In this document: positions 1,546 through 11,115 of the stretch, one piece after another
How positions within the stretch are numbered: the first letter of the stretch is position 1
Layout: the number at the start of each line of letters is the position of its first letter
Virus record (IMG/VR): IMGVR_UViG_2923302340_000003
Strand: one strand, 5' to 3'
From: a virus
Taxonomy: Duplodnaviria > Heunggongvirae > Uroviricota > Caudoviricetes
DNA length: 11,115 nucleotides
Notes under the pieces: model-generated
Seen by the model: only the letters and a program-made list of their open reading frames with translations
What the model was told of the DNA's origin: nothing
The model's database searches: none
Made by a program: the position numbers and the translations under genes

Positions 1546-1571
1546 TTGCAAAAAGCCTTACCCGTAGGCTT
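1546..1571 (-). terminator. Candidate intrinsic terminator for the small minus-strand ORF
   Basis: AAGCCT (1553-1558) and AGGCTT (1566-1571) form a 6-bp stem with a 7-nt loop. On the minus strand the stem is followed by TTTGCAAC. It lies about 40 nt downstream of the stop at 1611. Confidence 0.35.
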
Positions 1572-1610
1572 AACATTTGGCTTGGCTGTAGTCTTACCGT
1601 AACGCTCCGC

Positions 1611-1790
1611 TCACCGTCGTGGCCTGTCCGGTTTCCGCCACTGATACGGCCTCACATCATCATGCTGGCGGCGTTCCTGTTGCAGCACAACGGAAACAGG
1701 CGCTGAACACCTGTTAATTTTGCTTGCTGTTTGTTTGATTCCGGCAATGCTGCGGATCATCTCCAGCATATCGGCTTCGGTGATGGTCAT
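1611..1790 (-). CDS. Small hypothetical protein (59 aa, MTITEADMLEMIRSIAGIKQ...), absent from the supplied ORF track
   Basis: Hand translation of the minus strand: ATG at 1790-1788, stop TGA at 1613-1611. AAGGTG Shine-Dalgarno lies 8-12 nt upstream (reverse complement of 1798-1803). A hairpin with T-run follows downstream. Confidence 0.35.
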   Translation of the reverse strand: MTITEADMLEMIRSIAGIKQTASKINRCSAPVSVVLQQERRQHDDVRPYQWRKPDRPRR

Positions 1791-1819
1791 GATTTACACC
1801 TTAGGAAATCTTAGGGGGC

Positions 1820-2090
1820 TGGTTGACACTTTCCGGCTTAAGACCTTAATAAATCTTAATATCGCAGGTTGACACACTTGACACTTTTTCGGGAAAAACC
1901 TTAACAAAACTTAACCATCCCTGGCATTTCTAAGCATGGCAACTTGACACTTTTCGCGATTTTTTCGGCTTTTTGACGAGGTAAATCTGGCGCAAAGCCA
2001 GTAACGGCGGGGTTTACAGCGAGGTTGACACTTTTTCGCGTTCAGAGTGTAAAGTGTCAACCTGGCAAGCTGCTCAACTTGACACTTTTT
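1820..2090. repeat. Iteron array 2: seven copies of TTGACACTTTT(T)CG-like repeats (six direct, one inverted), interspersed with CTTAA/CTTAG short repeats
   Basis: TTGACAC at 1823, 1869, 1878, 1944, 2024 and 2079. Inverted copy GTGTCAA at 2054-2060. Most are followed by a T4-5 run and CG. The array sits between the HTH gene end (2095) and the small ORF start (1790). Confidence 0.6.
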
Positions 2091-2094
2091 GATG

Positions 2095-2632
2095 TCATTG
2101 ATGGTCTGATTTTTCCCATTCAGCCAAGGCGTTTAGTCCTGCCTCACTCCATGTGTCCTGTTCATCGGGACAATCGCTGGCAACATAGCATAGTTCACAA
2201 CGCAACATACGAATTGCCAGCCAGGCATTACCCCGCAAATTGTATTGTTCAAAGTAATGCTGCCCGTCGCAATCCTCAAGGCAGATAGCACCACCATCAA
2301 GAAATTGCACTTCCCAGCCTAATTCCCCGGCTGCATTCAGCACACGCTGCCGTATGTCATCGTCCGTTACTGGTGCAGGGATTTTACCGTCTCTGGCCTT
2401 AACTGCTTTCCAGAACTCGCCCCACGTCATTTCCAGCGTTCTTTCTGGCCACATTTCAGAAACTGCGTCTTTTCCCTGTGCTGGTGGGCTGTTCCGCTGC
2501 TCTGTCGCTTCCACATCGATTTTTTTACCGGACATAACCACTTCGCCTTTCTCGATCCAGTCGTAAACTGTCTGGCGGCTTACGCCTTTGTGTTTGGCGT
2601 ATTCAGCTTTACTCATCAACATGTGGCTCACC
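2095..2632 (-). CDS. DNA-binding protein with N-terminal HTH (Nu1/excisionase-like, SKAEYAKHKGVSRQTVYDWIEKGE) and C-terminal Cys cluster (CX3C...CX2C)
   Basis: ORF on the minus strand. GAGGTGA Shine-Dalgarno 5 nt before ATG at 2632. The track's 2661 start is probably an upstream extension. HTH assignment is from motif resemblance only. Confidence 0.6.
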
Positions 2633-2687
2633 TCATGCATATACGATAAAAATAATTTCATGCGGAAAAGGAATGCGTTGTGGATAT

Positions 2688-2712
2688 GGAGGAAAGGGGC
2701 AATAACTGCCCC
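2688..2712 (-). terminator. Candidate intrinsic terminator after gene 2721..2993
   Basis: GGGGCA (2696-2701) and TGCCCC (2707-2712) form a 6-bp perfect stem with a 5-nt loop. On the minus strand it is followed by TTTCC. Confidence 0.4.
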
Positions 2713-2720
2713 TTGTTGAT

Positions 2721-2993
2721 TCAGTTACGCCAGGATGGCTGACTAAGCGTGGTTTTCATTACATCGTTGACGACCTGTTTTACGATTTCTGTGTTGGCTG
2801 TCGTGCTTTCAACATCAACAAAACCATAATCGCCAATTTCCACTGTCAGAGATTCCAGTTTCTTCCCCAGCGCATCAGGCAACTCTCCACTGAACCGGTG
2901 CTGAAGATTTTCCACCAGCAACGCCCTGAATGCCTCGCTGTTCTCTTTTTTCTGCCATAGCTGGCGTTTATCCACTCTGATATTTAATTTCAC
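2721..2993 (-). CDS. Hypothetical protein (90 aa), GTG start
   Basis: GTG start overlaps the TGA stop of the upstream gene in a GTGA arrangement. Strong AAGAGGTGA Shine-Dalgarno immediately upstream. Classic translational coupling. Confidence 0.6.
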   Translation of the reverse strand: MKLNIRVDKRQLWQKKENSEAFRALLVENLQHRFSGELPDALGKKLESLTVEIGDYGFVDVESTTANTEIVKQVVNDVMKTTLSQPSWRN

Positions 2994-3157
2994 AGTCTCA
3001 CCTCTTTAAGTGCCTTATCCATCAGTTGCCGGGCAATAACATGAATCGACGGCGCCACACCAAGCACAGATTTCTGACGCTCTTCGTCCTGGATACGTTG
3101 CAGGGCTTCAATCTGCCTCCGGGAAAGTAAAACTGGCTTTACTCCGTGACCTTTCAT
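2990..3157 (-). CDS. Small hypothetical protein (55 aa, MKGHGVKPVLLSRRQIEALQRIQDEERQK...), possible small regulator
   Basis: ATG at 3157 preceded by GGGAGA Shine-Dalgarno. The track ORF 2990..3226 has an implausible N-terminal extension. Confidence 0.5.
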   Translation of the reverse strand: MKGHGVKPVLLSRRQIEALQRIQDEERQKSVLGVAPSIHVIARQLMDKALKEVRL

Positions 3158-3189
3158 GATTTTTCTCCCGAATAATAACAACCACAACA

Positions 3190-3245
3190 ATTGCACAAAA
3201 TGAAATGATAGCGATAAATATTGCAATTAATGAAATGCAATAAGG
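3190..3245. promoter_or_regulatory. Two direct repeats ATTGCA-N4-ATGAAATG about 34 bp apart in the promoter region of the 55-aa gene; candidate regulator binding sites
   Basis: aattgcaCAAAatgaaatg and attgcaATTAatgaaatg, both read directly from the sequence. Confidence 0.3.
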
Positions 3246-3263
3246 CCGGGAAAAATCCCGGCC
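3229..3263 (-). terminator. Intrinsic terminator-like hairpin just downstream of the PerC-like gene
   Basis: GGCCGGG (3244-3250) and CCCGGCC (3257-3263) form a 7-bp perfect GC stem with a 6-nt loop. On the minus strand it is followed by TTATTGCATTTCATT. Confidence 0.5.
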
Positions 3264-3267
3264 TCCG

Positions 3268-3555
3268 TCACTGACTGCAATTTTTCGATCCAGGATATTT
3301 CCTGAATGCCTTACCATTGGGCTGATGTAATCCCATTCCGGCATGTGCCCGGCTGATGGTTTCGCGCATCTCCCCGAAATTATCCTGCTTTGCTGGTGGG
3401 CGTGCTGCCTTGCGGATACATTCCGCACGGCGCTTTGCCGCCTGTTCCCGTGCCTTGTCACCGTTCGCCAGCATAATGACCTCAGCCCACCGTTCCGCCG
3501 CTCTCCGGTACAGACCACGCGCTTCCAGTGCTTCCGCTTTGCTGTCGTGAATCAT
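3268..3555 (-). CDS. PerC-family-like transcriptional regulator (95 aa)
   Basis: The N-terminal motif AEALEARGLYRRAAERW resembles what I recall of PerC/Pch-type regulators. Start overlaps the stop of the upstream gene (ATGA). Family call is from memory, not searched. Confidence 0.5.
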   Translation of the reverse strand: MIHDSKAEALEARGLYRRAAERWAEVIMLANGDKAREQAAKRRAECIRKAARPPAKQDNFGEMRETISRAHAGMGLHQPNGKAFRKYPGSKNCSQ

Positions 3556-4094
3556 GCGCCTGTTTTCTCCTTTGCTGCCCGGCGCTGACGTTTGCGCTTC
3601 TCATTCAGCGCCACCAGCCGCGTTTCTGCGTCCTGTTGTTCCTGTGGTGTCACCTCGCCGCACGGCTGGCCTTTCAGGTCGTAGCGTACCCCACCAGCCA
3701 TTAAGGCGCGGTAATAGCGCGGACACTGCGCATAAGATGCCAGCGTCGCACGTAATGCCCCTGGCCCGAATGCCAGCCCCCTGACGGCGAGATCCTGCAT
3801 CAGGTCGTCGAATATCCCCACCTTAAGCGGCTTCGGTGCTTCCCGGCTGAATAATTCAGGCCACAACTCAGTGAGGCGGTTAACGCGCCTGCGGTTTTTG
3901 TGCTGGCGTTTGGTCATATGCCGCCACGGTGTCGCCCCTGTGGGCTTCTGCTGCGCTTTCTGGTTACCGGGCATCACTTTATGCGCCGATGTGGTTTTAT
4001 CCTGCTCCTGCGCCGCCTGCGTCGTTTTCTGCGGCGTGCCGTAAATGCCTTTAGGTTTTCTGTTAATGGTCAGCTTAGTCATGCTTTGCCCCAT
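3552..4094 (-). CDS. ProQ/FinO-domain RNA-binding protein with a basic N-terminal extension; true start may be the second ATG at 4082
   Basis: The segment LWPELFSREAPKPLKVGIFDDL...LRATLASYAQCPRYYRALMAGGVRYDLKGQPCGEV aligns by eye with the E. coli ProQ N-terminal domain (FPHCF...RPLKIGIFQDL...RVDLDGNPCGEL). Confidence 0.8.
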   Translation of the reverse strand: MGQSMTKLTINRKPKGIYGTPQKTTQAAQEQDKTTSAHKVMPGNQKAQQKPTGATPWRHMTKRQHKNRRRVNRLTELWPELFSREAPKPLKVGIFDDLMQDLAVRGLAFGPGALRATLASYAQCPRYYRALMAGGVRYDLKGQPCGEVTPQEQQDAETRLVALNEKRKRQRRAAKEKTGA

Positions 4095-4175
4095 CGTTTT
4101 TACTGATTGCTACGTTGCCCAACGGCACTGACACAACATTCTGTTTTCATTTTTAACATTCCTGATTTTTTAATT

Positions 4176-4560
4176 CCTCACCTGCTGCACAGTGAGAATT
4201 TATGAAGTTAATAACAATATGATTTTAAATGTATTTTTAAGTACTCACTTTTTAATCCTTATATATACGCAAAAGTGAGGTAAATAGTTAAGTTTTAGTT
4301 AATATCTTGCATGGTGTGTTTTTTAACCTACCTGTTATTTTATTACCTCATTTCTATTAACTCACCATTCCTCACTTTTGTTCCTCACTTTTTATTATTC
4401 TTGTTCTGCTCCTCAGTCGTTTTCTTTATTGTTGTAATCTGTTGTTTTGCAATGTGTTTTTAACTCCTCACTTTTTGACCTATATACAGGTGAGAAAGTG
4501 AGGAAAACAGGGATGATTTTTAAATATTCCCTGCCCCCTCACTTTTACGCCTCACTTTTT
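4176..4560. repeat. Iteron array 1 (probable replication origin): CCTCACTTTT repeats in an AT-rich region immediately downstream of the replication gene
   Basis: Direct copies at 4244, 4370, 4383, 4466, 4537 and 4550. Inverted copies AAAGTGAGG at 4272-4280 and 4495-4503. Partial copies at 4176, 4346 and 4361. The last copy abuts the rep stop codon. Confidence 0.65.
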
Positions 4561-5971
4561 ACAGTGGGCGCACATCATCACCGTCAATAGCGATTACGCC
4601 GTCACCTTCCAGCTTGTACAGCCAGCGCCGGAAGTTTTTCATCTCATACCCCAGCTTTTTCATGTCATCGCGCAACAACGGAATAGTGCATTTATCTCCG
4701 CGTTGCGTGCGTGAACGGATACAGCCCCATAGTGCGGCGTGATTCTCCGTCTTGTTCCCGGCTTCCTCGATGCGCTCCAGTTCAACTGGCGGACGGGGCT
4801 TATCCTCCAGCACCAACGACGTGATTAACTCCCCGCCTTCATCCTTGAAAAGCTCAACCTCGCGCAAATCGCAAGCCATTTCTTTCAGTTCCTCCGCATC
4901 CTTCATCTTGGTACATGCGATAACCAGGGCTTCACTGCCTGCACCTTCACGGCGTATCCGGTACTCTGCATCCAGTGCTGCACGAAACGCACTGGAACCG
5001 CGCGCACCCTTTGTTTCATCCTTGCCGGAATGGTGAATTACCAGCACTGTAGCGCCTGTACGCCGTTTCAGTTCGTCACATCCATGGACAAATGCCCCCA
5101 TATCCCGCGCATCATTTTCATCGCTGCCACCAAAGCAACGCGCCAGAGTATCCAGAATAATCATGCGTACAGGTTTACCCGTTTCCTGCTCAACCTGTCG
5201 GGCAGCAATAACCATTTCATCAACATCACTCGGTGCGGCCGGAAAAATTGGACGATTTACCAGGTACAGATTTTTCACCTGCTCACTGTTCACCAGTTCC
5301 CATGCCTTGATACGACGAGGAACACCGATCCCCCCCTCACCAACGACATACATCACCGCACCATGTACAACCCTGCGACCTCCCCACGGGATACCGGTAG
5401 CAACATGACACGCCCACGAACACGCAAGGAACGACTTATAAGAACCGCTCGCACCGTATGTGCTACATAGCGAATTAGCCGGAATCACACCCTTAACCAC
5501 ATAGCTAAGCTGTGAATCGTATCCTTCCGATCCAATGCTCATTGGTAGCGTGGTTTTTCGCTGGCTGTATTGCTCGTCAGTAAGCATTTCTTCGCGCTCT
5601 GCCTGTTCGCGGATCCGTTGCAGGTAATCGCGCCAGTTCTCCGGCTCCCGGTCGGTGATGCCTTTGTATAATTTCGCCTCCTGTACGCCAGCCAGTGCCA
5701 GTTTTTCAGCGATAGCATTGATCTGGATTGGTTCGATCTCCCCCGCGAGATAGACACGCGCAAAGCGGCGTTCATCGTCGACAATGCGGATATTCGCCAG
5801 GTCTGCCAGTTGCTTTGGCCCCAGGTAAACAGGTGGTACGTTATCGCCGTGTTTTCGTCCTTCGCTTTCAATCCAGTGTTGAGCATGGGCGTAAGCATCC
5901 GTCCCGGCAAAAATGATTACCTCAGTGAATTTATCCTTCGGCTGATATTTCAAACTCGGTGCGTTTTTCAC
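4559..5971 (-). CDS. Replication protein: N-terminal TOPRIM-like region fused to a RecA-fold (RepA/DnaB-like) ATPase; putative primase/helicase
   Basis: Walker A GASGSYKS and Walker B-like MIILDTL are present. N-terminal acidic motifs (FAGTD, IVDDE) suggest TOPRIM. The start is directly adjacent to the upstream stop. Iterons lie immediately downstream. Confidence 0.8.
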   Translation of the reverse strand: MKNAPSLKYQPKDKFTEVIIFAGTDAYAHAQHWIESEGRKHGDNVPPVYLGPKQLADLANIRIVDDERRFARVYLAGEIEPIQINAIAEKLALAGVQEAKLYKGITDREPENWRDYLQRIREQAEREEMLTDEQYSQRKTTLPMSIGSEGYDSQLSYVVKGVIPANSLCSTYGASGSYKSFLACSWACHVATGIPWGGRRVVHGAVMYVVGEGGIGVPRRIKAWELVNSEQVKNLYLVNRPIFPAAPSDVDEMVIAARQVEQETGKPVRMIILDTLARCFGGSDENDARDMGAFVHGCDELKRRTGATVLVIHHSGKDETKGARGSSAFRAALDAEYRIRREGAGSEALVIACTKMKDAEELKEMACDLREVELFKDEGGELITSLVLEDKPRPPVELERIEEAGNKTENHAALWGCIRSRTQRGDKCTIPLLRDDMKKLGYEMKNFRRWLYKLEGDGVIAIDGDDVRPL

Positions 5972-6258
5972 TTCTTACCTCCCGCAACCAACATTGCCCG
6001 GATTTTTTTAATATTCGTGGCTGCACGTCTTGCCACTGCCTGTTGTTTGTTTTCAACCAGAATAAAATCACGCTCAAACTGACGGCGCGGCATTACGCAG
6101 TCATATTCGTAAGCCTCACGGCGGTAGGTGATATTGCCTGGCGTAACGTGACGAATAACCACTCGTCCCCCACGTCTGGTGTCGCGGTAAATATCGCCGT
6201 GTCTGATTTCAGGCCGAGCGGGGCCGCTGGCAGTAAAGCCAGAATTTTTCTTTTTCAT
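5968..6258 (-). CDS. Hypothetical protein (96 aa), coupled to the replication gene
   Basis: AGGAAA Shine-Dalgarno upstream of ATG at 6258. Its stop is directly adjacent to the rep start codon. Confidence 0.55.
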   Translation of the reverse strand: MKKKNSGFTASGPARPEIRHGDIYRDTRRGGRVVIRHVTPGNITYRREAYEYDCVMPRRQFERDFILVENKQQAVARRAATNIKKIRAMLVAGGKK

Positions 6259-6262
6259 GGTT

Positions 6263-6463
6263 TTATTTTCCTGTCAGCAGTTCCGGTTTTATTTCCGCAC
6301 GAATACAAAGTTCAGAAAAAAATTCAGGAGAACCAACAATCTCATTACTTTTCAGTCGGCATTGTGATTTCACTTTCCCTTTATCCAGGTAAACCAGTAC
6401 GCGTCCGGTGAAATCATCTGGCACACTCAGGGTAATTGTCATTGTTGCTTGCTGATTATCCAT
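6263..6463 (-). CDS. Hypothetical small protein (66 aa) with one copy of an FTG-x-LV...G-x-V-x-S...RL module
   Basis: 8-nt overlap with the upstream gene. Shares a motif with the 121-aa protein encoded at 6456..6821. Confidence 0.55.
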   Translation of the reverse strand: MDNQQATMTITLSVPDDFTGRVLVYLDKGKVKSQCRLKSNEIVGSPEFFSELCIRAEIKPELLTGK

Positions 6464-6821
6464 GATTCACCCCCTGAATAACCTGATAACCGCAACTGGT
6501 CAGCAATTCGATAAATTCCGGCAGTGTGCCGAAACAGCAATCATCACGCATACGTTCGCGGGATACCTCAACGCCGTTTTCGTAGTGACTCACCATGCGT
6601 CCAGTAAAATGCAGATCATCATCGTGATGGCACGTTGACGGCTTAATCAGTCGCGCACGTTCTGCCAGCTCCAGCAATGCTTCAACACTTCCGGCAATTG
6701 CACCATCCGGCAGGCGATAATTACTTACCACGCGTCCATTCTCCACATTGACCAGTAGCTGCCCGGTAAATTTCTCATCAAACTGAATGCTGTTAAGGTC
6801 AGAAATTGACAGGTTATGCAT
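6456..6821 (-). CDS. Hypothetical protein (121 aa) with two tandem copies of the same module (FTGQLLVNVENGRVVSNYRL and FTGRMVSHYENGVEVSRER)
   Basis: Strong AGGAGGTG Shine-Dalgarno 5 nt upstream of ATG at 6821. 8-nt overlaps with both neighbouring genes. Confidence 0.6.
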   Translation of the reverse strand: MHNLSISDLNSIQFDEKFTGQLLVNVENGRVVSNYRLPDGAIAGSVEALLELAERARLIKPSTCHHDDDLHFTGRMVSHYENGVEVSRERMRDDCCFGTLPEFIELLTSCGYQVIQGVNHG

Positions 6822-7179
6822 GGTGCACCTCCTGGCGAATACGGGCGGCGAATACCATCACACAGCCATCAGGAGATTGCTGGCGTGCTTCCTGTTCGCT
6901 GGTGGCCTCGATGTGAATTACGCGCGGTTGTGCCGTGCTCAGGGCGATAAAACGCCAGATAAAATTGTTCTCGCATTTCTGAATAAACAGCGTGTTTTCT
7001 TCGCGCCCTTTCCATGTTGCCGAGATATAGCCCATGTCATTGAGCATCTCGCAGGCATCCACCAGCGTATCAGCGGCTACGTGTACAGTGTTTTTACCGT
7101 CAGCCATGCAATCACGGTGCACCGCCAGGAAGGTGTATATAAATTTAGGGTGAGTTTGGGTATGCTGTGTTCCAGCCAT
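6814..7179 (-). CDS. Hypothetical protein (121 aa, MAGTQHTQTHPKFIYTF...), first gene of the replication operon
   Basis: GGAG Shine-Dalgarno 9-12 nt upstream of ATG at 7179. The track's 335-aa ORF (to 7821) is an artefactual upstream extension that crosses the divergent promoter and the opposite-strand gene. Confidence 0.55.
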   Translation of the reverse strand: MAGTQHTQTHPKFIYTFLAVHRDCMADGKNTVHVAADTLVDACEMLNDMGYISATWKGREENTLFIQKCENNFIWRFIALSTAQPRVIHIEATSEQEARQQSPDGCVMVFAARIRQEVHHA

Positions 7180-7253
7180 AATCGTTACTCCAGTTAACGG
7201 TTTGGTTAGACGCCCTGCATGTGTTGCGAGCACTGCGGGGCGTCGCTCTTTTA

Positions 7254-7305
7254 GGTGTATTTCACCTTTGCTTTTTAATTTACTCACTGGTGAAATACAC
7301 TTCAA
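7254..7305. promoter_or_regulatory. Operator-like perfect 12-bp inverted repeat GTGTATTTCACC-N22-GGTGAAATACAC overlapping a candidate minus-strand sigma70 promoter
   Basis: Left arm 7254-7265, right arm 7288-7299. Candidate minus-strand promoter: -35 TTGAAG (reverse complement of 7299-7304) and -10 TAAATT (reverse complement of 7276-7281) with 17-bp spacing. TATACT at 7331-7336 may be the -10 for the plus-strand gene. Confidence 0.5.
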
Positions 7306-7366
7306 GCCTTTTTTTATCATTTTTTTTGCGTATACTGACATACACCAATTTTTAGGAGATCCAGAA

Positions 7367-7546
7367 ATGGCAACTGGTGCAAAGAACGCAAAATCACAAA
7401 TGACAACTGTCAGAATCCCACATGAAGTAATGGATGATATTGAGCAACTTAAAGAACCTGGCGAAAGTACCGCTGGTTTTTTAGTTACTGCCGCAAAAGG
7501 CGAGATCAAACGCCGCCAGCGTCGCAAGGCCAAAGAGCAGGAGTAG
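7367..7546 (+). CDS. Small protein (59 aa, MATGAKNAKSQMTTVRIPHEVMDDIEQLKEPGE...) divergent from the replication operon; candidate regulator
   Basis: AGGAG Shine-Dalgarno 7-11 nt upstream of ATG at 7367. Basic C-terminal tail. The track ORF 7202..7546 has an implausible N-terminal extension. Confidence 0.5.
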   Translation: MATGAKNAKSQMTTVRIPHEVMDDIEQLKEPGESTAGFLVTAAKGEIKRRQRRKAKEQE

Positions 7547-7767
7547 TTGATCAGCACCGGACGACCAGAAAAAATTGCATCAGTCGCGCCACCAGCAGTA
7601 TTTTTTGCTTTCCGGACAGCGTGGCCAACGGCATTTTGCAGCAAAATATTCTGCATTTCTGGCGTGCTGTAGAAACGGTGATCAGCGCCTTCACATTGAA
7701 CGAACTTGTCGCTAAAATTCACCCACATAGCAAACATCGCGGTGCTGTAGGTAATTCGTTCACAAAG

Positions 7768-7798
7768 GCGCTCCGGCAACGGGGCGCTTTTTCTTTTT
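7768..7798 (+). terminator. Strong rho-independent terminator (plus strand), possibly weakly bidirectional
   Basis: GCGCTCCG (7768-7775) pairs with CGGGGCGC (7780-7787) around a GCAA tetraloop. This is an 8-bp stem with one G-U pair, followed by TTTTTCTTTTT (7788-7798). Confidence 0.7.
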
Positions 7799-7813
7799 GT
7801 AACGGTCAGAGCG

Positions 7814-8614
7814 TTACACATGGCTGTTTTCCTCCATGCGACGGGCTAACCAACGCTGCGAAAGACGAATTAATTCAGCTTTCCGCTGGTGGTAGTCCTG
7901 GCCTAACTCAATCAGCGTGATATTGCTCTGCTCAAGGTAAGAAAGGTGCTCAAGCTGCAACGTGCTCATGTGGTCGCGTGGTTCGCCTGTGATGCCGTTC
8001 GCCTGCGCCCACTGTTTTGCAGTCATGCCACCCAGCACGATACGCGCCAGCATATTGGCTTCCGTGGTGTAGTGGTGCTGGAACGTGTTTTTACCCAGTT
8101 CAGCCCGGTACGCCTCCAGCGCGGCGCACATCGGCTTAAAGTAACTGGCAACGGTGATACGGGCTTTCAGTTCCCGGCGTAACGCTGCGGAACGAACAGG
8201 CGCTACCTTGTGTAGCTCCTCCTCGCATTTGATGAAGTACTGACGAACGGCGCGGCCCTGTTCGGTGCGTTCGACCATCGCCAGTTCTTTCGCCATGTTC
8301 ACGGTAATGATGTACTCAAGAGCTGTTTGCTGGCGAGATTTTGCGCTCACCGGATCGGGTCGGCTCAAATATTCAACAACCTCATAATCCACGCCTTCCG
8401 TGAAGCCGTATTCTTCAATGCGCCCCTTGATCCACGAACGGAAAACGCGACCTACACCTAACGCCTTATGCAACGCTCTGGCGCTAACAATATTGGTTTC
8501 ACACCCGCCAATAATGCCGGAAATAACCGGGATAATTTCGCCGAAATTTTGCAGATTCTGGTTTTCAGGCCGAACGAAGCCCTGCCCCTGTACGGGCGTT
8601 TTTCGCAGTTTCAT
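7814..8614 (-). CDS. Phage antirepressor-like protein (AntA-type N-terminal domain)
   Basis: The N-terminal region SARALHKALGVGRVFRSWIKGRIEEYGFTEGVDYEV resembles the AntA antirepressor domain pattern, recalled from memory. 266-aa ORF. Confidence 0.65.
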   Translation of the reverse strand: MKLRKTPVQGQGFVRPENQNLQNFGEIIPVISGIIGGCETNIVSARALHKALGVGRVFRSWIKGRIEEYGFTEGVDYEVVEYLSRPDPVSAKSRQQTALEYIITVNMAKELAMVERTEQGRAVRQYFIKCEEELHKVAPVRSAALRRELKARITVASYFKPMCAALEAYRAELGKNTFQHHYTTEANMLARIVLGGMTAKQWAQANGITGEPRDHMSTLQLEHLSYLEQSNITLIELGQDYHQRKAELIRLSQRWLARRMEENSHV

Positions 8615-8691
8615 AAAAACTCCTGCTATCGAATTAAGTTACTTTTTATTTGCTGGTGGATAGCTGGGGAAAAAGCCCCGTTGCTGTTTAA

Positions 8692-8919
8692 TCAGGCTGA
8701 TGTGTTTCGGCGTTCTTCCAGCCAGCGATTAATCTCTACCGCATCGAATGCAGTGCTTTTCTCACCCAGTTTGATGGGCTTAGGCATCTTCCCGCTACGC
8801 ACCCAACGATCGAGCGTTGATAAGCTGGTACCCAGCAATTCAGCCAGGCGATAGCGGCGGATATAGCCAGTTGCAGGGATTGCGGTTTGAAGTATTGGTT
8901 GGTTTTTCATATGCCCCAT
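8692..8919 (-). CDS. alpA: AlpA-family phage transcriptional regulator (about 72-75 aa)
   Basis: Motif RYRLAELLGTSLSTLDRWVRSGKMPKPIKLGEKSTAFDAVEINRWL matches the AlpA/Vis-type pattern. The track ORF start at 9003 is an extension. Likely start is ATG at 8919 or 8910. Confidence 0.75.
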   Translation of the reverse strand: MGHMKNQPILQTAIPATGYIRRYRLAELLGTSLSTLDRWVRSGKMPKPIKLGEKSTAFDAVEINRWLEERRNTSA

Positions 8920-9022
8920 TACCTTTGTTGTTGGTTTGTGATTCGTAATAGGGGCATTAAATAACAAATGAAATGATGTGTGTGTGAGTTTTAGAAAAAA
9001 CACTGTGACTTTTCTTATTTCA

Positions 9023-9805
9023 CTATCTAAAACGCTCTCGCCAGCTTTTCCAAGTGTTCTTATCTGGTTGTGGGATTACAATGCCTTTTTGAGCACCTAT
9101 TTGTGCAATTTTTTTATTTAACTTGTTAGGCGGCAAAGATATTATCTCATTGTCTGTTAATCCGGCAATTCTTAATAATCCATATATCATTTTAAATTGA
9201 TGTATTGTTAATCTTGGTAACTTGTGATTTTCTTTTTTTATAGTGTTGTTTATGGAGTAAATTGGAAATCCATTTGTTATTGATTTATAAAGGTTGTCAA
9301 TGTGCTCTCTGGTTATTAATAATGAATCAGGTGTAATCTTAATGTTGCCGCTTGTTTTTGCATGGCATGAAAAAATAAATGTGGGATTCGCAGTGCGACG
9401 TGAAAGCGGTATGGATGTATTCATAGAGATAGTTTTGTTTCTTACTATAGTCTCTTGAATATCAAAAACTCCAGAAACCTTTGCCTCAAAAATAACACCA
9501 TTTTCTTTTATTTCATCACTATATTCATGAATAATTATGCCAAGAGAGGAAATTTCTTTTTTGATGAGAAAAGAAATAAAATCAATATAGTCTTCATCCT
9601 TTGGCCATGTAAAATCACGATAACCAAAATACCCCTCACAGTAAGCATTTTTTATTTTTGTGGCAAAATTAATTCTGTTAATATCCTGCCAATGCCATAA
9701 ATCATCTATTTCACATTCTAAAATTTGAGCTGCTCTATCTAAAGAGCAGAATTCTAATGGAGGTAATTGTTTTTTTTGCCATATTGTTTCATTAATATTT
9801 GTCAT
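9023..9805 (-). CDS. AT-rich orphan hypothetical protein (260 aa) inserted between int and alpA; candidate cargo gene
   Basis: Uninterrupted ORF in a block that is clearly more AT-rich than the flanking int and alpA genes. Asn/Ile/Lys-rich. No recognisable motif. Confidence 0.65.
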   Translation of the reverse strand: MTNINETIWQKKQLPPLEFCSLDRAAQILECEIDDLWHWQDINRINFATKIKNAYCEGYFGYRDFTWPKDEDYIDFISFLIKKEISSLGIIIHEYSDEIKENGVIFEAKVSGVFDIQETIVRNKTISMNTSIPLSRRTANPTFIFSCHAKTSGNIKITPDSLLITREHIDNLYKSITNGFPIYSINNTIKKENHKLPRLTIHQFKMIYGLLRIAGLTDNEIISLPPNKLNKKIAQIGAQKGIVIPQPDKNTWKSWRERFR

Positions 9806-9861
9806 GATTGCACTACCGTTATGAAAAAATATATTCGTTAATGAATTAGCCTTAATGTCTA

Positions 9862-11115
9862 TTATTTATTAGATTGCGTGATGTCAGAACATATCATGTT
9901 TTCTAAATTCACCAGCAAATCAGTCCACTGTGCCAGCGCCGCTTTGCGCTCATCAAAATATTGATGGCGGTTATAAATGCCCTCTACGCCTTTTATGCGG
10001 TGGTTAAGGCATCGTTCAGCAACGATCGGGTCAACTCCCAATGCTGCTAAATGTGTTCGTGCTGTTCGCCGGAAGTCGTGAATTGTAAAGTTGGGGACGT
10101 TCGGCATTTCTGCTCTGACTTTTGCCAATGCAACAGGAAGGGTGCTTTCCTGGATGTGAGGGATCATTCTGTGCTGCATTTTTCTGGCAGGTAATACCCA
10201 TGCGCTATTGCATGAAAATGTGTGCAATTCTCGCAACCATTCTATGGTCGCTGGTGGTAATGGTATGTCGATAGCATCGCCATTTTTAGTTCGTTGTTCT
10301 GGTAGATGCCAAATCGCGCCATCTAAGTCGAATTCATCCCACCTGGCGGCGCATAATTCCATTTTTCTGACACACAATGCTAAGAGCAACTTAAAGGTTA
10401 ATTCGTTCTGGCGGCTGAATCCTTTGGCTTTACGCATGGCCTGAAAAAATTGGATTAATTCGTCACGGTTCAGCCAGCGATCACGAGATAATTCTTTCCC
10501 ACCAGCATCTGATACTTCAAAAGCTGAGCAGGGGTTAACCTCCAAAGCAAGGCGTTTAATACCGTAGTCAAATATTCGACGTGTCCACCGAAGAACGTCA
10601 GTAGCAATTGTTGGAGCGCCTCTATCAACAATGCTTTTAAGCATGGCATCAATATGGCGTGGTTTTACATCTTCAACCTTCATGTGGCCTATGGCAGGAT
10701 TTATGTCTTTATCAATGCGCCTGCGGAGAATATCTGGGTGTTTCCATCGGGGAAGTATTTGCCGTGCAAAGTATTCGGCGGCAAGTTCAGAAACATGCAG
10801 CGCGTTTTTTTCAGCTTCTATTTTTGCCAGTGCTTCGGCTTTACGCTGCTGTTTTTCTGCGGCTACGTCATATCCCAAAGCAACTCGTGCGGAAAGTTCT
10901 TTTGCCAGTTCCCTGGCTTTTGATAACGATAATTCAGAATATGAACCAATAAGCATGGCACGAGATTTTCCCGCCAGTTTATATCGAAACCGCCATGTCG
11001 GGGATCTATCCACCTCTCTATACCGGAGATATAGCCCACCACCATCAGCACGACCTTCGAAATGTTCTCCGGCTTTTATCCATGCGCGGATCTGCATATC
11101 TGTGAGTTTTGGCAT
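9862..11115 (-). CDS. int: P4-type tyrosine integrase (417 aa), apparently full length
   Basis: N-terminus MPKLTDMQIRAW...GGGLYLRY is typical of P4-family integrases. C-terminal catalytic motifs HDFRRTARTHL and EGIYNRHQY (Tyr nucleophile) are present. Confidence 0.9.
   Translation of the reverse strand: MPKLTDMQIRAWIKAGEHFEGRADGGGLYLRYREVDRSPTWRFRYKLAGKSRAMLIGSYSELSLSKARELAKELSARVALGYDVAAEKQQRKAEALAKIEAEKNALHVSELAAEYFARQILPRWKHPDILRRRIDKDINPAIGHMKVEDVKPRHIDAMLKSIVDRGAPTIATDVLRWTRRIFDYGIKRLALEVNPCSAFEVSDAGGKELSRDRWLNRDELIQFFQAMRKAKGFSRQNELTFKLLLALCVRKMELCAARWDEFDLDGAIWHLPEQRTKNGDAIDIPLPPATIEWLRELHTFSCNSAWVLPARKMQHRMIPHIQESTLPVALAKVRAEMPNVPNFTIHDFRRTARTHLAALGVDPIVAERCLNHRIKGVEGIYNRHQYFDERKAALAQWTDLLVNLENMICSDITQSNK

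What the first reader, a model, noticed from the sequence alone, without database searches (positions are those of the whole stretch)
4176..4560. AT-rich iteron array abutting the replication gene, a probable origin
At least six direct and two inverted copies of CCTCACTTTT lie in an AT-rich 400-bp stretch directly downstream of the TOPRIM/RecA-like replication gene. The last copy overlaps its stop codon. This is the classic arrangement of a Rep-bound iteron origin.
Basis: partly seen in the sequence, partly recalled or inferred. Interest (0 to 1): 0.45.

Follow-up and report, generated by a model that had tools for sequence, protein, structure and literature searches.

The report
Phage-satellite replication origin with Rep-matched iterons
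The repeat-rich, AT-rich stretch just after the helicase gene is very probably the replication origin of an E. coli phage satellite (a PICI-type island); this is an ordinary, expected arrangement, but relatives show the repeats changing in step with one amino acid of the helicase's DNA-binding domain.

Summary
CCTCACTTTT (at most 1 mismatch) occurs 8 times in the window, all in 4243-4559, against 0.84 expected. With degenerate copies there are about 14 cores in 4176-4559, and GC falls to 0.25.

The window is an EcCICFT073-like phage-inducible chromosomal island. In PICIs the origin is known to lie just 3' of rep, as two iteron sets around an AT-rich stretch (PMC6092414).

In about 70 related loci the same repeat architecture follows the rep stop codon. 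The iteron core GTG-N-GG tracks Rep residue 446: Asn with A, His or Lys with G, Ser or Gly with C. One relative's DNA-binding domain differs from the window's only by N446H, and its origin reads GTGGGG at every copy.

Limits:
- The TOPRIM label is not supported by sequence.
- One of two forward predictions was ambiguous.
- Replication itself is untested.

Verdict: a new member of a known kind, of modest interest.

The parts
4559..5971 (-). rep: 470-aa helicase-initiator of the RepA family. It starts at a GTG that overlaps the stop of the DUF4222 gene by 4 nt.
   Evidence: ORF. Pfam AAA_25 at residues 150-319, E 3.8e-44. phrog_2850 over the full length, E 7e-221. NCBI name 'helicase RepA family protein'.
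4562..4768 (-). C-terminal winged-helix domain of Rep (residues 402-470), the predicted iteron-binding domain. The third helix (447-456) is assigned as the recognition helix by analogy with winged-helix DNA binders.
4634..4636 (-). Codon of Asn446 (AAC), the residue that covaries with base 4 of the iteron core GTG-N-GG.
   Evidence: The + strand reads gtt at 4634-4636. Covariation table. Single-residue natural swap in P0025/L083.
4537..4559 (+). Module E: two direct iterons 13 nt apart (4537-4546 and 4550-4559). The last one overlaps the rep stop codon.
   Evidence: These copies align with GTGGGG copies in His-type relatives.
4466..4503 (.). Module D: a convergent (palindromic) iteron pair, 4466-4475 (+) and 4494-4503 (-), plus an extra core at 4490-4494. 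They surround the conserved centre CCTATATACAGG (CCTGTATATAGG on the rep-sense strand).
   Evidence: Inverted repeat I2. A CTGTATAY centre lies 53-71 nt after the rep stop in about 30 of 71 loci, in all specificity classes; 33 loci carry the motif somewhere within 450 nt. Background is 0.10 per kb.
4393..4465 (.). T-rich (A-rich on the rep-sense strand) spacer of the core origin, with one degenerate copy at 4411-4420. It is a candidate unwinding region of the core origin.
   Evidence: The aligned A-rich spacer is present in short-origin relatives.
4346..4392 (+). Module C: four direct iterons, at 4346 (CCTCATTTCT), 4360 (ACTCACCATT), 4370 and 4383 (both exact).
   Evidence: These copies align with 4-6 direct GTGGGG copies in L074/L076.
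4200..4345 (.). The most AT-rich and least stable DNA of the region (GC 0.25-0.30). It flanks module B and is a candidate unwinding element of the long origin.
   Evidence: Composition profile. Nearest-neighbour free energy of 30-mers is -28.7 to -33 kcal/mol here, against a window mean of -39.9.
4243..4280 (.). Module B: a second convergent iteron pair (4243-4252 + and 4271-4280 -) around TATATATA. It is part of a 77-nt partial duplicate of module D (4220-4296 versus 4443-4519, 71% identity).
   Evidence: Repeat D1 and inverted repeat I15. In the His-type long origin L084 both arms change at the specificity base (window 4278 and 4245). These are 2 of only 22 differences in 206 columns.
4176..4199 (.). 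Module A: a close inverted pair CCTCAC-N10-GTGAG. Its membership in the Rep iteron set is doubtful.
   Evidence: It is unchanged in the His-type L084. A similar element sits inside the Xenorhabdus origins.
4077..6115 (.). The replicon cassette: the only block with no homology to the EcCICFT073-type sister island. It holds the origin, rep and the 3' part of the DUF4222 gene.
   Evidence: blastn of the window against L002 shows homology at 1550-4076 and 6116-11115 only. The sister cassette has a different Rep and GGTGAACAG iterons.

Best explanation
Window 4176-4561, with a core at about 4346-4561, is the vegetative replication origin of an integrated E. coli phage satellite. The satellite has a PICI/cf-PICI-type backbone like EcCICFT073.

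The origin is built from iterons of about 11 bp, AAAAGTGAGGA on the rep-sense strand. From the rep stop codon outward the order is:
- a direct array that overlaps the stop codon;
- a convergent iteron pair around a conserved CTGTATAY centre;
- an A/T-rich spacer;
- a second direct array;
- in this long version, a second convergent pair set in the most AT-rich DNA.

Proposed mechanism:
1. After the island is induced, the adjacent 470-aa Rep, a RecA-fold RepA-family hexameric helicase, binds the iterons through its C-terminal winged-helix domain.
2. Residue 446, at the N-cap of the third (presumed recognition) helix, reads base 4 of the core GTG-N-GG.
3. The DNA melts at the TATA-rich centre or the AT-rich spacers.
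4. Rep loads itself as the replicative helicase, without DnaA or a separate loader.

What is shown: the anatomy, the family context, co-inheritance of rep and origin, the winged-helix fold, and the covariation. What is inferred: binding, melting, self-loading, and the source of priming (host DnaG, because this Rep lacks the primase module that some relatives carry).
For: Statistics and layout.

PICI identity: the minus strand carries, in order, integrase, an AlpA-like excisionase, AntA, Icd-like, DUF4222, rep, the origin, ProQ/FinO and PerC. The backbone is 93-98% identical to the ABU 83972 island.

Literature: PICI origins lie 3' of rep with two iteron sets around an AT-rich region, and EcCICFT073 rep-ori drives plasmid replication (PMC6092414). 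SaPI Reps bind iterons through a C-terminal winged helix and self-load (PMC9371898).

Cassette swap: the non-homologous block is 4077-6115.

Family-wide pattern: in about 60 loci the commonest G/C-containing 7-mer occurs 4-10 times within 500 bp after the stop codon. It occurs 0-3 times in the remaining ~5.5 kb.

Covariation of residue 446 with the iteron base: N with A in 8 of 8 loci, H with G in 13 of 14, K with G in 35 of 37, S with C in 8 of 8, G with C in 1 of 1.

Natural swaps:
- P0025/L083 has a C-terminal 69 aa identical to the window's except N446H. Its origin has GTGGGG 5+1 times and GTGAGG 0 times.
- P0002/L079 (N) versus P0026/L076 (H) behave the same way.
- Alignment A2 shows A/G swapped at every aligned copy, while the AAAA prefix and ACCTGTATA stay constant.
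- Both arms of module B flipped on a background 89% identical.

Other points:
- DUF4222 does not track iteron type.
- A forward prediction for P0149/L086 was met, with AGTGAGG 8 times.
- The winged-helix fold is supported.
- No DnaA or IHF consensus sites.
- A 17-kb relative with the same origin design is recorded as a circular episome.
Against: There is no experimental binding or replication data for this replicon type in anything I could search.

The second forward prediction (P0178/L087, Asn in a Ser-type background) gave a mixed origin of GTGCGG, GTGTGG and GTGAG. Residue 446 is therefore not the only determinant.

Salmonella L080 (Asn-type) has a mixed GAG/GGG origin.

Module A does not covary.

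The 3' end of rep and the origin are physically linked. Some of the association could therefore reflect joint recombination rather than selection. The concerted change of all copies, and the point changes in module B, argue against linkage alone.

The full-length Rep model is poor (pLDDT 57). The N-terminal domain is unassigned.
Confidence: 0.85

Rival explanations
1. The repeats are Rep-binding sites, but their main role is regulatory rather than initiation. They could mediate copy-number control or incompatibility by handcuffing. Alternatively, Rep bound there could block transcription reading from rep into the downstream proQ-perC genes. The true start site would lie elsewhere.
For: Iterons in plasmids do double as control elements (established knowledge; reviews listed). 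The array sits between rep and the downstream genes of a unidirectional operon. The window carries a partly duplicated extra module (4220-4296 versus 4443-4519) that short-origin relatives lack. That module could be a control array.
Against: There is no other iteron cluster or AT-rich candidate in the window. The published functional test places the EcCICFT073 origin in the equivalent position. The conserved layout of convergent pair, TATA centre and AT-rich spacer is origin-like. Control and initiation roles are not mutually exclusive.
Confidence: 0.08
2. The repeats are bound by a protein other than Rep. Candidates are the DUF4222 protein (part of the swapped cassette), ProQ/FinO, PerC, a helper-phage protein, or a packaging or partition factor. 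The array would then be an operator, a pac-like site or a centromere-like site.
For: The 3' part of the DUF4222 gene lies inside the swapped cassette. Module A (4176-4199) looks like a dimer operator and does not follow Rep type.
Against: DUF4222 sequences do not track iteron type. Pairs of opposite type are 90-92% identical, while L074 and L075 share the same Rep and origin but have DUF4222 proteins only 47% identical. The downstream genes differ among loci with the same iterons: ProQ, SSB or an 83-aa ORF. Iteron type tracks a residue in Rep's winged helix. No par or terminase gene is adjacent.
Confidence: 0.04
3. The repeats are non-functional: slippage or duplication debris in AT-rich intergenic DNA.
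For: AT-rich intergenic DNA does accumulate short repeats. A 77-nt segment here is a partial duplicate.
Against: 0 of 200 shuffles reach the observed count. The architecture is conserved across Enterobacterales and beyond. All copies change in concert between lineages while the spacers diverge.
Confidence: 0.01

Closest known systems
Origins of Gram-negative PICIs, with EcCICFT073 as prototype (Fillol-Salom et al. 2018, PMC6092414)
   Same: The island backbone is the same, 93-98% identical outside the replicon. The origin lies immediately 3' of rep. Two sets of short iterons surround AT-rich DNA. rep and origin are exchanged as one cassette.
   Different: The EcCICFT073-type island carries a 604-aa 'DNA primase family' Rep with GGTGAACAG/CTGTTCACC iterons. 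From memory, these resemble the phage P4 alpha sites. The window has a RepA-family RecA-fold helicase and AAAAGTGAGGA iterons. Function was tested for EcCICFT073, not for this replicon.
SaPI Rep/ori, the self-loading helicase-initiators of Staphylococcus aureus pathogenicity islands (PMC9371898 and the work it cites)
   Same: The helicase is also the initiator. A C-terminal winged-helix domain reads short iterons placed directly after the rep ORF. An AT-rich centre has iterons on both sides pointing in opposite directions. No separate loader is needed.
   Different: SaPI Reps are AAA+ helicases of the SF3/MCM-like kind, which run 3'-5'. This Rep is an AAA_25 RecA-fold protein of the RepA/DnaB/gp4-like kind. 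PDB sequence search gave no hit at all, SaPI Reps included. Here the iterons are about 10-11 bp, against 5-6 bp in SaPIs.
RSF1010/IncQ RepA helicase with the RepC-iteron origin
   Same: The ATPase core belongs to the same Pfam family, AAA_25, of which (from memory) RSF1010 RepA is a known member. Replication is iteron-based and independent of DnaA.
   Different: From memory: in IncQ plasmids the iterons (about 20 bp) are bound by a separate protein, RepC, and priming is by RepB'. Here the origin-binding winged helix is fused to the helicase.
Phage P4 alpha protein with ori/crr
   Same: A satellite replicon whose single protein combines helicase and a C-terminal winged-helix origin binder that reads short repeated sites. 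Some relatives of the window's Rep carry Zn-ribbon and TOPRIM primase modules. From memory, the P4 alpha primase is of a similar type.
   Different: From memory, the P4 alpha helicase is SF3-type and its sites are TGTTCACC in two separated clusters. The window's Rep has no detectable primase module.
Classical iteron plasmids (pPS10, F, RK2, R6K)
   Same: Repeated initiator-binding sites lie next to an AT-rich unwinding element, and the initiator uses winged-helix DNA binding.
   Different: Those initiators are not helicases, their iterons are 17-22 bp, and they need DnaA boxes and DnaB/DnaC (from memory, plus reviews listed). None of this applies here: there are no DnaA boxes.

Membership tests
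PICI replication origin (Gram-negative lineage) | The origin lies immediately 3' of the replication initiator gene. | tested here: met
   The array ends at 4559 and overlaps the rep stop codon at 4559-4561.
PICI replication origin (Gram-negative lineage) | Two sets of iterons flank an AT-rich region. | tested here: met
   Direct arrays lie at 4537-4559 and 4346-4392, around a convergent pair and a spacer. A further pair at 4243-4280 sits in DNA of GC 0.25.
PICI replication origin (Gram-negative lineage) | The host element has PICI gene content and unidirectional organisation: int, an AlpA-type regulator, the replication module, then interference and accessory genes. | tested here: met
   int at 9862-11115, an excisionase/AlpA-like ORF at 8692-9003, AntA, Icd-like, DUF4222, rep, ProQ and PerC are all on the minus strand. 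The backbone is shared with the ABU 83972 island.
PICI replication origin (Gram-negative lineage) | rep plus ori is sufficient for autonomous replication, and replication is induced by a helper phage. | not testable with these tools
   Only circumstantial: a 17-kb relative is deposited as a circular 'plasmid'.
SaPI-type Rep (self-loading helicase-initiator) | A C-terminal winged-helix domain recognises the iterons. | tested here: met
SaPI-type Rep (self-loading helicase-initiator) | An AAA+ (SF3/MCM-like) ATPase core. | tested here: not met
   The core is Pfam AAA_25, with weak RadA matches, so it is RecA-fold. PDB sequence search found nothing. Weak fold matches are to KaiC, Twinkle and RadA.
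Classical plasmid iteron replicon (Rep_3 / RepA-WH1-WH2 type) | A non-helicase Rep initiator, iterons of 17-22 bp, and DnaA boxes in the origin. | tested here: not met
   The initiator is a helicase. The repeat unit is about 10-13 bp. There is no TTWTNCACA in the window.
   Pfam finds nothing in residues 1-140 even at E<=5. Relatives such as L029 have Zn_Ribbon_Prim plus Toprim_3. BLASTP of the window's N-domain against that relative gives no significant match. There is a match to phrog_864 'DNA primase' at E 9e-8. The domain is predicted as alpha/beta with pLDDT 60-85, but it could not be fold-searched on its own.
RepA helicase family (Pfam AAA_25; NCBI 'helicase RepA family protein') | Significant match to the family profile, including the P-loop. 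| tested here: met
   AAA_25 scores 151 bits against a cutoff of 27. GxSGSYKS and the DTLARCFGG/DEND motifs are invariant across relatives.

The most novel reading that the evidence does not exclude
One residue at the N-cap of the third (presumed recognition) helix of Rep's winged helix, position 446, acts as a simple read-out switch for one iteron base: Asn with A, His or Lys with G, Ser or Gly with C. This would yield a family of mutually orthogonal satellite replicons.

On this reading the switch has flipped repeatedly within near-identical backgrounds. Mixed origins (L080, L087) and tandem dual-specificity origins (Xenorhabdus L004) would be snapshots of initiator-origin co-evolution. That co-evolution could be driven by competition or incompatibility between satellites that share a cell.
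Probability: 0.45. Interest if true: 0.55.

Novelty: new member of a known kind. Interest (0 to 1): 0.35.

Why it matters
For annotation, this places the origin of a widespread replicon that databases leave unmarked. The core origin has matches in 268 of 5,426 complete E. coli genomes, and the Rep family runs across Enterobacterales. The adjacent gene is labelled only 'helicase RepA family protein'.

It also shows that satellites with one backbone swap whole rep-ori cassettes between unrelated helicase superfamilies.

The more useful by-product is a clean natural experiment. Near-identical Rep proteins that differ at residue 446 sit next to origins whose iterons all differ at one base. That gives a directly testable specificity rule (N446H with GTGAGG to GTGGGG) for an initiator-helicase. 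It also gives a handle on replicon orthogonality and incompatibility among co-resident phage satellites, and possibly parts for orthogonal replicons in E. coli.

None of this overturns current understanding.

Tried and rejected
- Rfam scan of the whole window found no RNA family, so a structured RNA is not indicated.
- The sigma-70 promoter scan of 3900-4800 found no site, and its one terminator-like hit lies outside the array and is at chance level. This gives no support for a promoter/operator reading, though the scan is crude.
- DnaA-box and IHF consensus searches found none.
- PDB sequence search with Rep gave no hit.
- The first full-length AlphaFold model, from an 11-sequence alignment, was poor (pLDDT 57). 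Its Foldseek matches were weak: KaiC, Twinkle and RadA, with E >= 1e-3 and TM about 0.2. I used it only as a hint of a RecA fold.
- TOPRIM in the N-domain could not be shown.
- Literature searches for the iteron strings returned only unrelated primer hits.
- The supplements of PMC6092414 hold no iteron list as text.
- Searches for RepA-type PICI replicons and for the P4 TGTTCACC sites in the held library found nothing usable. The P4 comparison therefore rests on memory.
- DUF4222 as the specificity determinant is rejected.
- The 50-aa ORF at 4311-4463 (+) inside the array was treated as spurious: it is AT-rich, has no homologue evidence, and is not conserved in short-origin relatives.

Full report
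**1. Observation**

CCTCACTTTT with at most one mismatch occurs 8 times in the 11,115-base window, and all copies lie in 4243-4559. The chance expectation is 0.84, and 0 of 200 dinucleotide-preserving shuffles reach 8.

- Six copies are on the + strand: 4243 (one mismatch), 4370, 4383, 4466, 4537 and 4550.
- Two are inverted: 4271-4280 and 4494-4503.
- Looser copies add CTCA cores at 4176, 4346, 4360 and 4411 (+), and at 4192 and 4490 (-). That gives about 14 cores in 385 bp.

GC drops to 0.25-0.32 here, against 0.5-0.6 in the flanks. The least stable 30-mers of this part of the window lie at 4190-4365.

The neighbouring ORF, 4559-5971 on the minus strand, ends with TAA at 4559-4561. The array is therefore 3' of it, and the last copy overlaps the stop codon by one base.

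**2. Anatomy**

Read from the rep stop codon outward, on the rep-sense strand, the unit is AAAAGTGAGGA. The modules are:

| Module | Coordinates | Content |
|---|---|---|
| E | 4537-4559 | two direct copies, 13 nt apart |
| D | 4466-4503 | convergent pair around CCTGTATATAGG |
| spacer | 4393-4465 | A-rich on the rep-sense strand |
| C | 4346-4392 | four direct copies |
| B | 4243-4280 | second convergent pair around TATATATA, in the most AT-rich DNA |
| A | 4176-4199 | close inverted pair, CCTCAC-N10-GTGAG |

Segment 4220-4296 is a 71%-identical partial duplicate of 4443-4519.

Modules E, D and C form a core that matches about 240 further complete E. coli genomes at roughly 70% identity. The distal part, 4095-4362, is present in only about 20 genomes.

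**3. What the element is**

The minus strand encodes, in order:

- a tyrosine integrase (9862-11115);
- an excisionase/AlpA-like ORF;
- an AntA antirepressor;
- an Icd-like protein;
- two phrog_340 proteins;
- DUF4222;
- the 470-aa Rep;
- the repeat region;
- ProQ/FinO and PerC.

Outside one block, the window is 93-98% identical to the island between yicC and dinD of E. coli ABU 83972. That is the EcCICFT073-type PICI.

Close Rep relatives sit in islands that also carry capsid, protease and terminase genes, that is, capsid-forming PICIs. The window is therefore a phage satellite of the PICI kind.

[quoted passage not shown] It also shows that EcCICFT073 rep-ori drives plasmid replication, which is lost when either rep or ori is mutated (PMC6092414).

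**4. Rep**

Pfam finds AAA_25 at residues 150-319 (E 4e-44), and NCBI names the family 'helicase RepA family protein'.

The C-terminal 69 residues fold with pLDDT 90 into three helices and a beta hairpin.

- All top Foldseek hits are also winged helices, but at E >= 0.096.

The N-terminal 130 residues are unassigned:

- Pfam finds nothing even at E<=5.
- There is no similarity to the Zn-ribbon plus TOPRIM module that 680-aa relatives carry at that position.
- The only hit is to a PHROG labelled primase (E 9e-8).

So 'RecA-like' is right and 'TOPRIM' is unproven.

**5. rep and the repeats travel together**

Against the ABU 83972 island, the only non-homologous block is window 4077-6115. It begins just past the proQ start and ends inside the DUF4222 gene. 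It therefore comprises the repeat region plus rep.

The sister island fills that slot with a 604-aa 'DNA primase family' Rep. This Rep is followed by its own GGTGAACAG/CTGTTCACC repeats.

**6. Family-wide pattern**

A scan of one genome per species returned 69 loci that encode relatives of the helicase core, across Enterobacterales and a few Oceanospirillales.

- In nearly all intact loci the commonest G/C-containing 7-mer in the 500 bp after the stop codon occurs 4-10 times. It occurs 0-3 times in the other ~5.5 kb.
- The layout recurs: a direct array at the stop codon, a convergent pair around CTGTATAY, a spacer, then a second direct array.
- The CTGTATAY motif lies 53-71 nt after the stop in about 30 of 71 loci, in every specificity class. 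In all, 33 loci carry it within 450 nt, against a background of 0.10 per kb.

**7. Covariation, the strongest evidence**

The repeat core is GTG-N-GG, and N differs between lineages. It tracks the residue aligned with Asn446, in the motif K445-N446-F447-R448-R449-W450. That residue sits at the N-cap of the third helix (447-456), which I take to be the recognition helix by analogy with other winged-helix DNA binders.

| Residue 446 | Iteron base N | Loci |
|---|---|---|
| Asn | A | 8 of 8 |
| His | G | 13 of 14 |
| Lys | G | 35 of 37 |
| Ser | C | 8 of 8 |
| Gly | C | 1 of 1 |

Near-isogenic pairs make the point sharply:

- P0025 has a C-terminal 69 aa identical to the window's except N446H. 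Its origin (L083) has GTGGGG 5+1 times and GTGAGG not at all.
- P0002 (Asn, L079) and P0026 (His, L076) differ at three C-terminal-domain positions and show the same switch.
- In the four-way alignment the A/G difference appears at every aligned copy. The AAAA prefix and the ACCTGTATA centre are invariant.
- In the long origin of L084 (His-type), the distal 206 columns differ from the window at only 22 positions. Two of those are the specificity base in both arms of module B, at window 4278 and 4245.

Linkage of the 3' end of rep with the origin could create an association. It cannot explain why all copies in an origin agree with each other and flip together.

The DUF4222 protein is the other gene touched by the cassette, and it does not track iteron type. 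Pairs of opposite type are 90-92% identical. L074 and L075, with identical Rep and origin, have DUF4222 proteins only 47% identical.

**8. Forward test and exceptions**

Before fetching them, I predicted A-type iterons for two Asn-bearing Reps in foreign backgrounds.

- P0149/L086 has AGTGAGG 8 times, so the prediction was met.
- P0178/L087 has a mixed origin of GTGCGGCA, GTGTGGC and GTGAG, so the prediction was not clearly met.

Two other exceptions stand. Salmonella L080 (Asn) also has a mixed GAG/GGG origin, on the same backbone as His-type L084. Module A of the window is unchanged in L084, so it may not be a Rep site.

Residue 446 is therefore a major determinant of specificity, but not the only one.

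**9. Mechanism**

By analogy with SaPI Reps, I infer the following. SaPI Reps are helicase-initiators whose C-terminal winged helix binds iterons placed right after rep. Hexamers are thought to load on each side of an AT-rich centre, with no loader and no ATP needed for origin binding or melting in vitro (PMC9371898).

- Rep binds the arrays and the convergent pair.
- It opens the TATA centre and/or the AT-rich spacers.
- It loads itself as the replicative helicase.

The absence of DnaA boxes and IHF sites fits this. Priming is presumably by host DnaG, because this Rep lacks the primase module of its longer relatives (inference).

A 16,971-bp Klebsiella record deposited as a circular plasmid is in fact such a satellite. 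It has integrase, capsid and terminase genes, and a Ser-type Rep followed by AAGTGCGGCA iterons in the same layout. This is circumstantial evidence that the replicon sustains an episome.

**10. Comparison and novelty**

It works like a PICI/SaPI origin, and by position, layout and host element it is a member of the Gram-negative PICI origin class.

It is not a SaPI-type Rep by ATPase fold: it is RecA-fold AAA_25, not AAA+. It is not a classical plasmid iteron replicon. It resembles an IncQ RepA helicase fused to an origin-binding domain.

I found no text describing this replicon's iterons. However, figure 2a of PMC6092414, which I could not read, may show related ones. I rate it a new member of a known kind.

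Interest is modest (0.35). The single-residue/single-base specificity switch is the one part that a specialist might want to test.

Noticed in passing
L004 3529-3745 and 3755-3950 (Xenorhabdus beddingii): Two complete origins lie in tandem after one rep gene. The first has GTGAGG iterons and the second GTGGGG iterons, each with the direct-array, convergent-pair, direct-array layout. The Rep there is Asn-type, so the second origin would need another element's Rep, or it is a relic of a specificity switch.
   Followed up: partly
L080 2890-3290 (Salmonella, Asn-type Rep) versus L084 2905-3305 (E. coli, His-type Rep): The two origins share a nearly identical backbone. L084 is almost all GTGGG. L080 is a mixture in which some copies are converted to GTGAG, which looks like an intermediate in iteron conversion by point mutation.
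   Followed up: partly
L002 6524-6753 (ABU 83972 island, EcCICFT073 type): The sister island's replicon slot holds a 604-aa 'DNA primase family' Rep, followed by GGTGAACAG/CTGTTCACC repeats on both strands. From memory these resemble the phage P4 alpha binding sites (TGTTCACC). One satellite backbone therefore carries replicons from unrelated helicase families.
   Followed up: partly
L085 = CP018459.1, whole record; origin at about 4890-5080: A 16,971-bp Klebsiella pneumoniae 'plasmid' (pKp_Goe_795-4) encodes integrase, capsid, head-tail adaptor and terminase. It also has a Ser-type Rep relative with AAGTGCGGCA iterons. It looks like a capsid-forming PICI recorded as a circular episome.
   Followed up: partly
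window 5582-5971 (-), Rep residues 1-130: The N-terminal domain is a shuffled module. It is 55-65% identical to the N-termini of DUF927 and DUF5906 (SF3-type) proteins on Klebsiella plasmids. Relatives of the helicase core instead carry Zn_Ribbon_Prim plus Toprim_3, or other N-domains. Its function is unknown.
   Followed up: partly
window 4100-4150 (-): A 16-codon ORF (MKTECCVSAVGQRSNQ) lies between the origin and proQ. Its first four codons and upstream sequence match the start of a 257-aa gene that occupies this position in L079 and L082. It is probably a deletion scar.
   Followed up: partly
L001 9461-9823 (E. coli 52F4, tRNA-Gly island): A related island keeps the whole origin and only the last ~365 bp of rep (99% identical to window 3238-4923). 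It is an orphan origin that could replicate only if a matching Rep were supplied in trans.
   Followed up: no
window 4176-4199: The close inverted pair CCTCAC-N10-GTGAG does not switch to the G-type in the His-type long origin L084. Similar elements sit inside the Xenorhabdus origins. It could be an operator for a different protein or a tolerated weak site.
   Followed up: partly
window 6814-7821 (-): A 335-aa ORF matches the Icd-like cell-division inhibitor family only in its last ~50 residues (NF033153, residues 287-330). In the sister island the Icd-like gene is a separate 67-aa ORF. This is either a fusion or an over-long ORF call.
   Followed up: no
window 5968-5971: The GTG start of rep overlaps the stop of the DUF4222 gene by 4 nt. 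The DUF4222-rep pairing is kept in almost all relatives, although DUF4222 itself varies freely (47-100% identity). This suggests translational coupling and some role for DUF4222 in replication.
   Followed up: no
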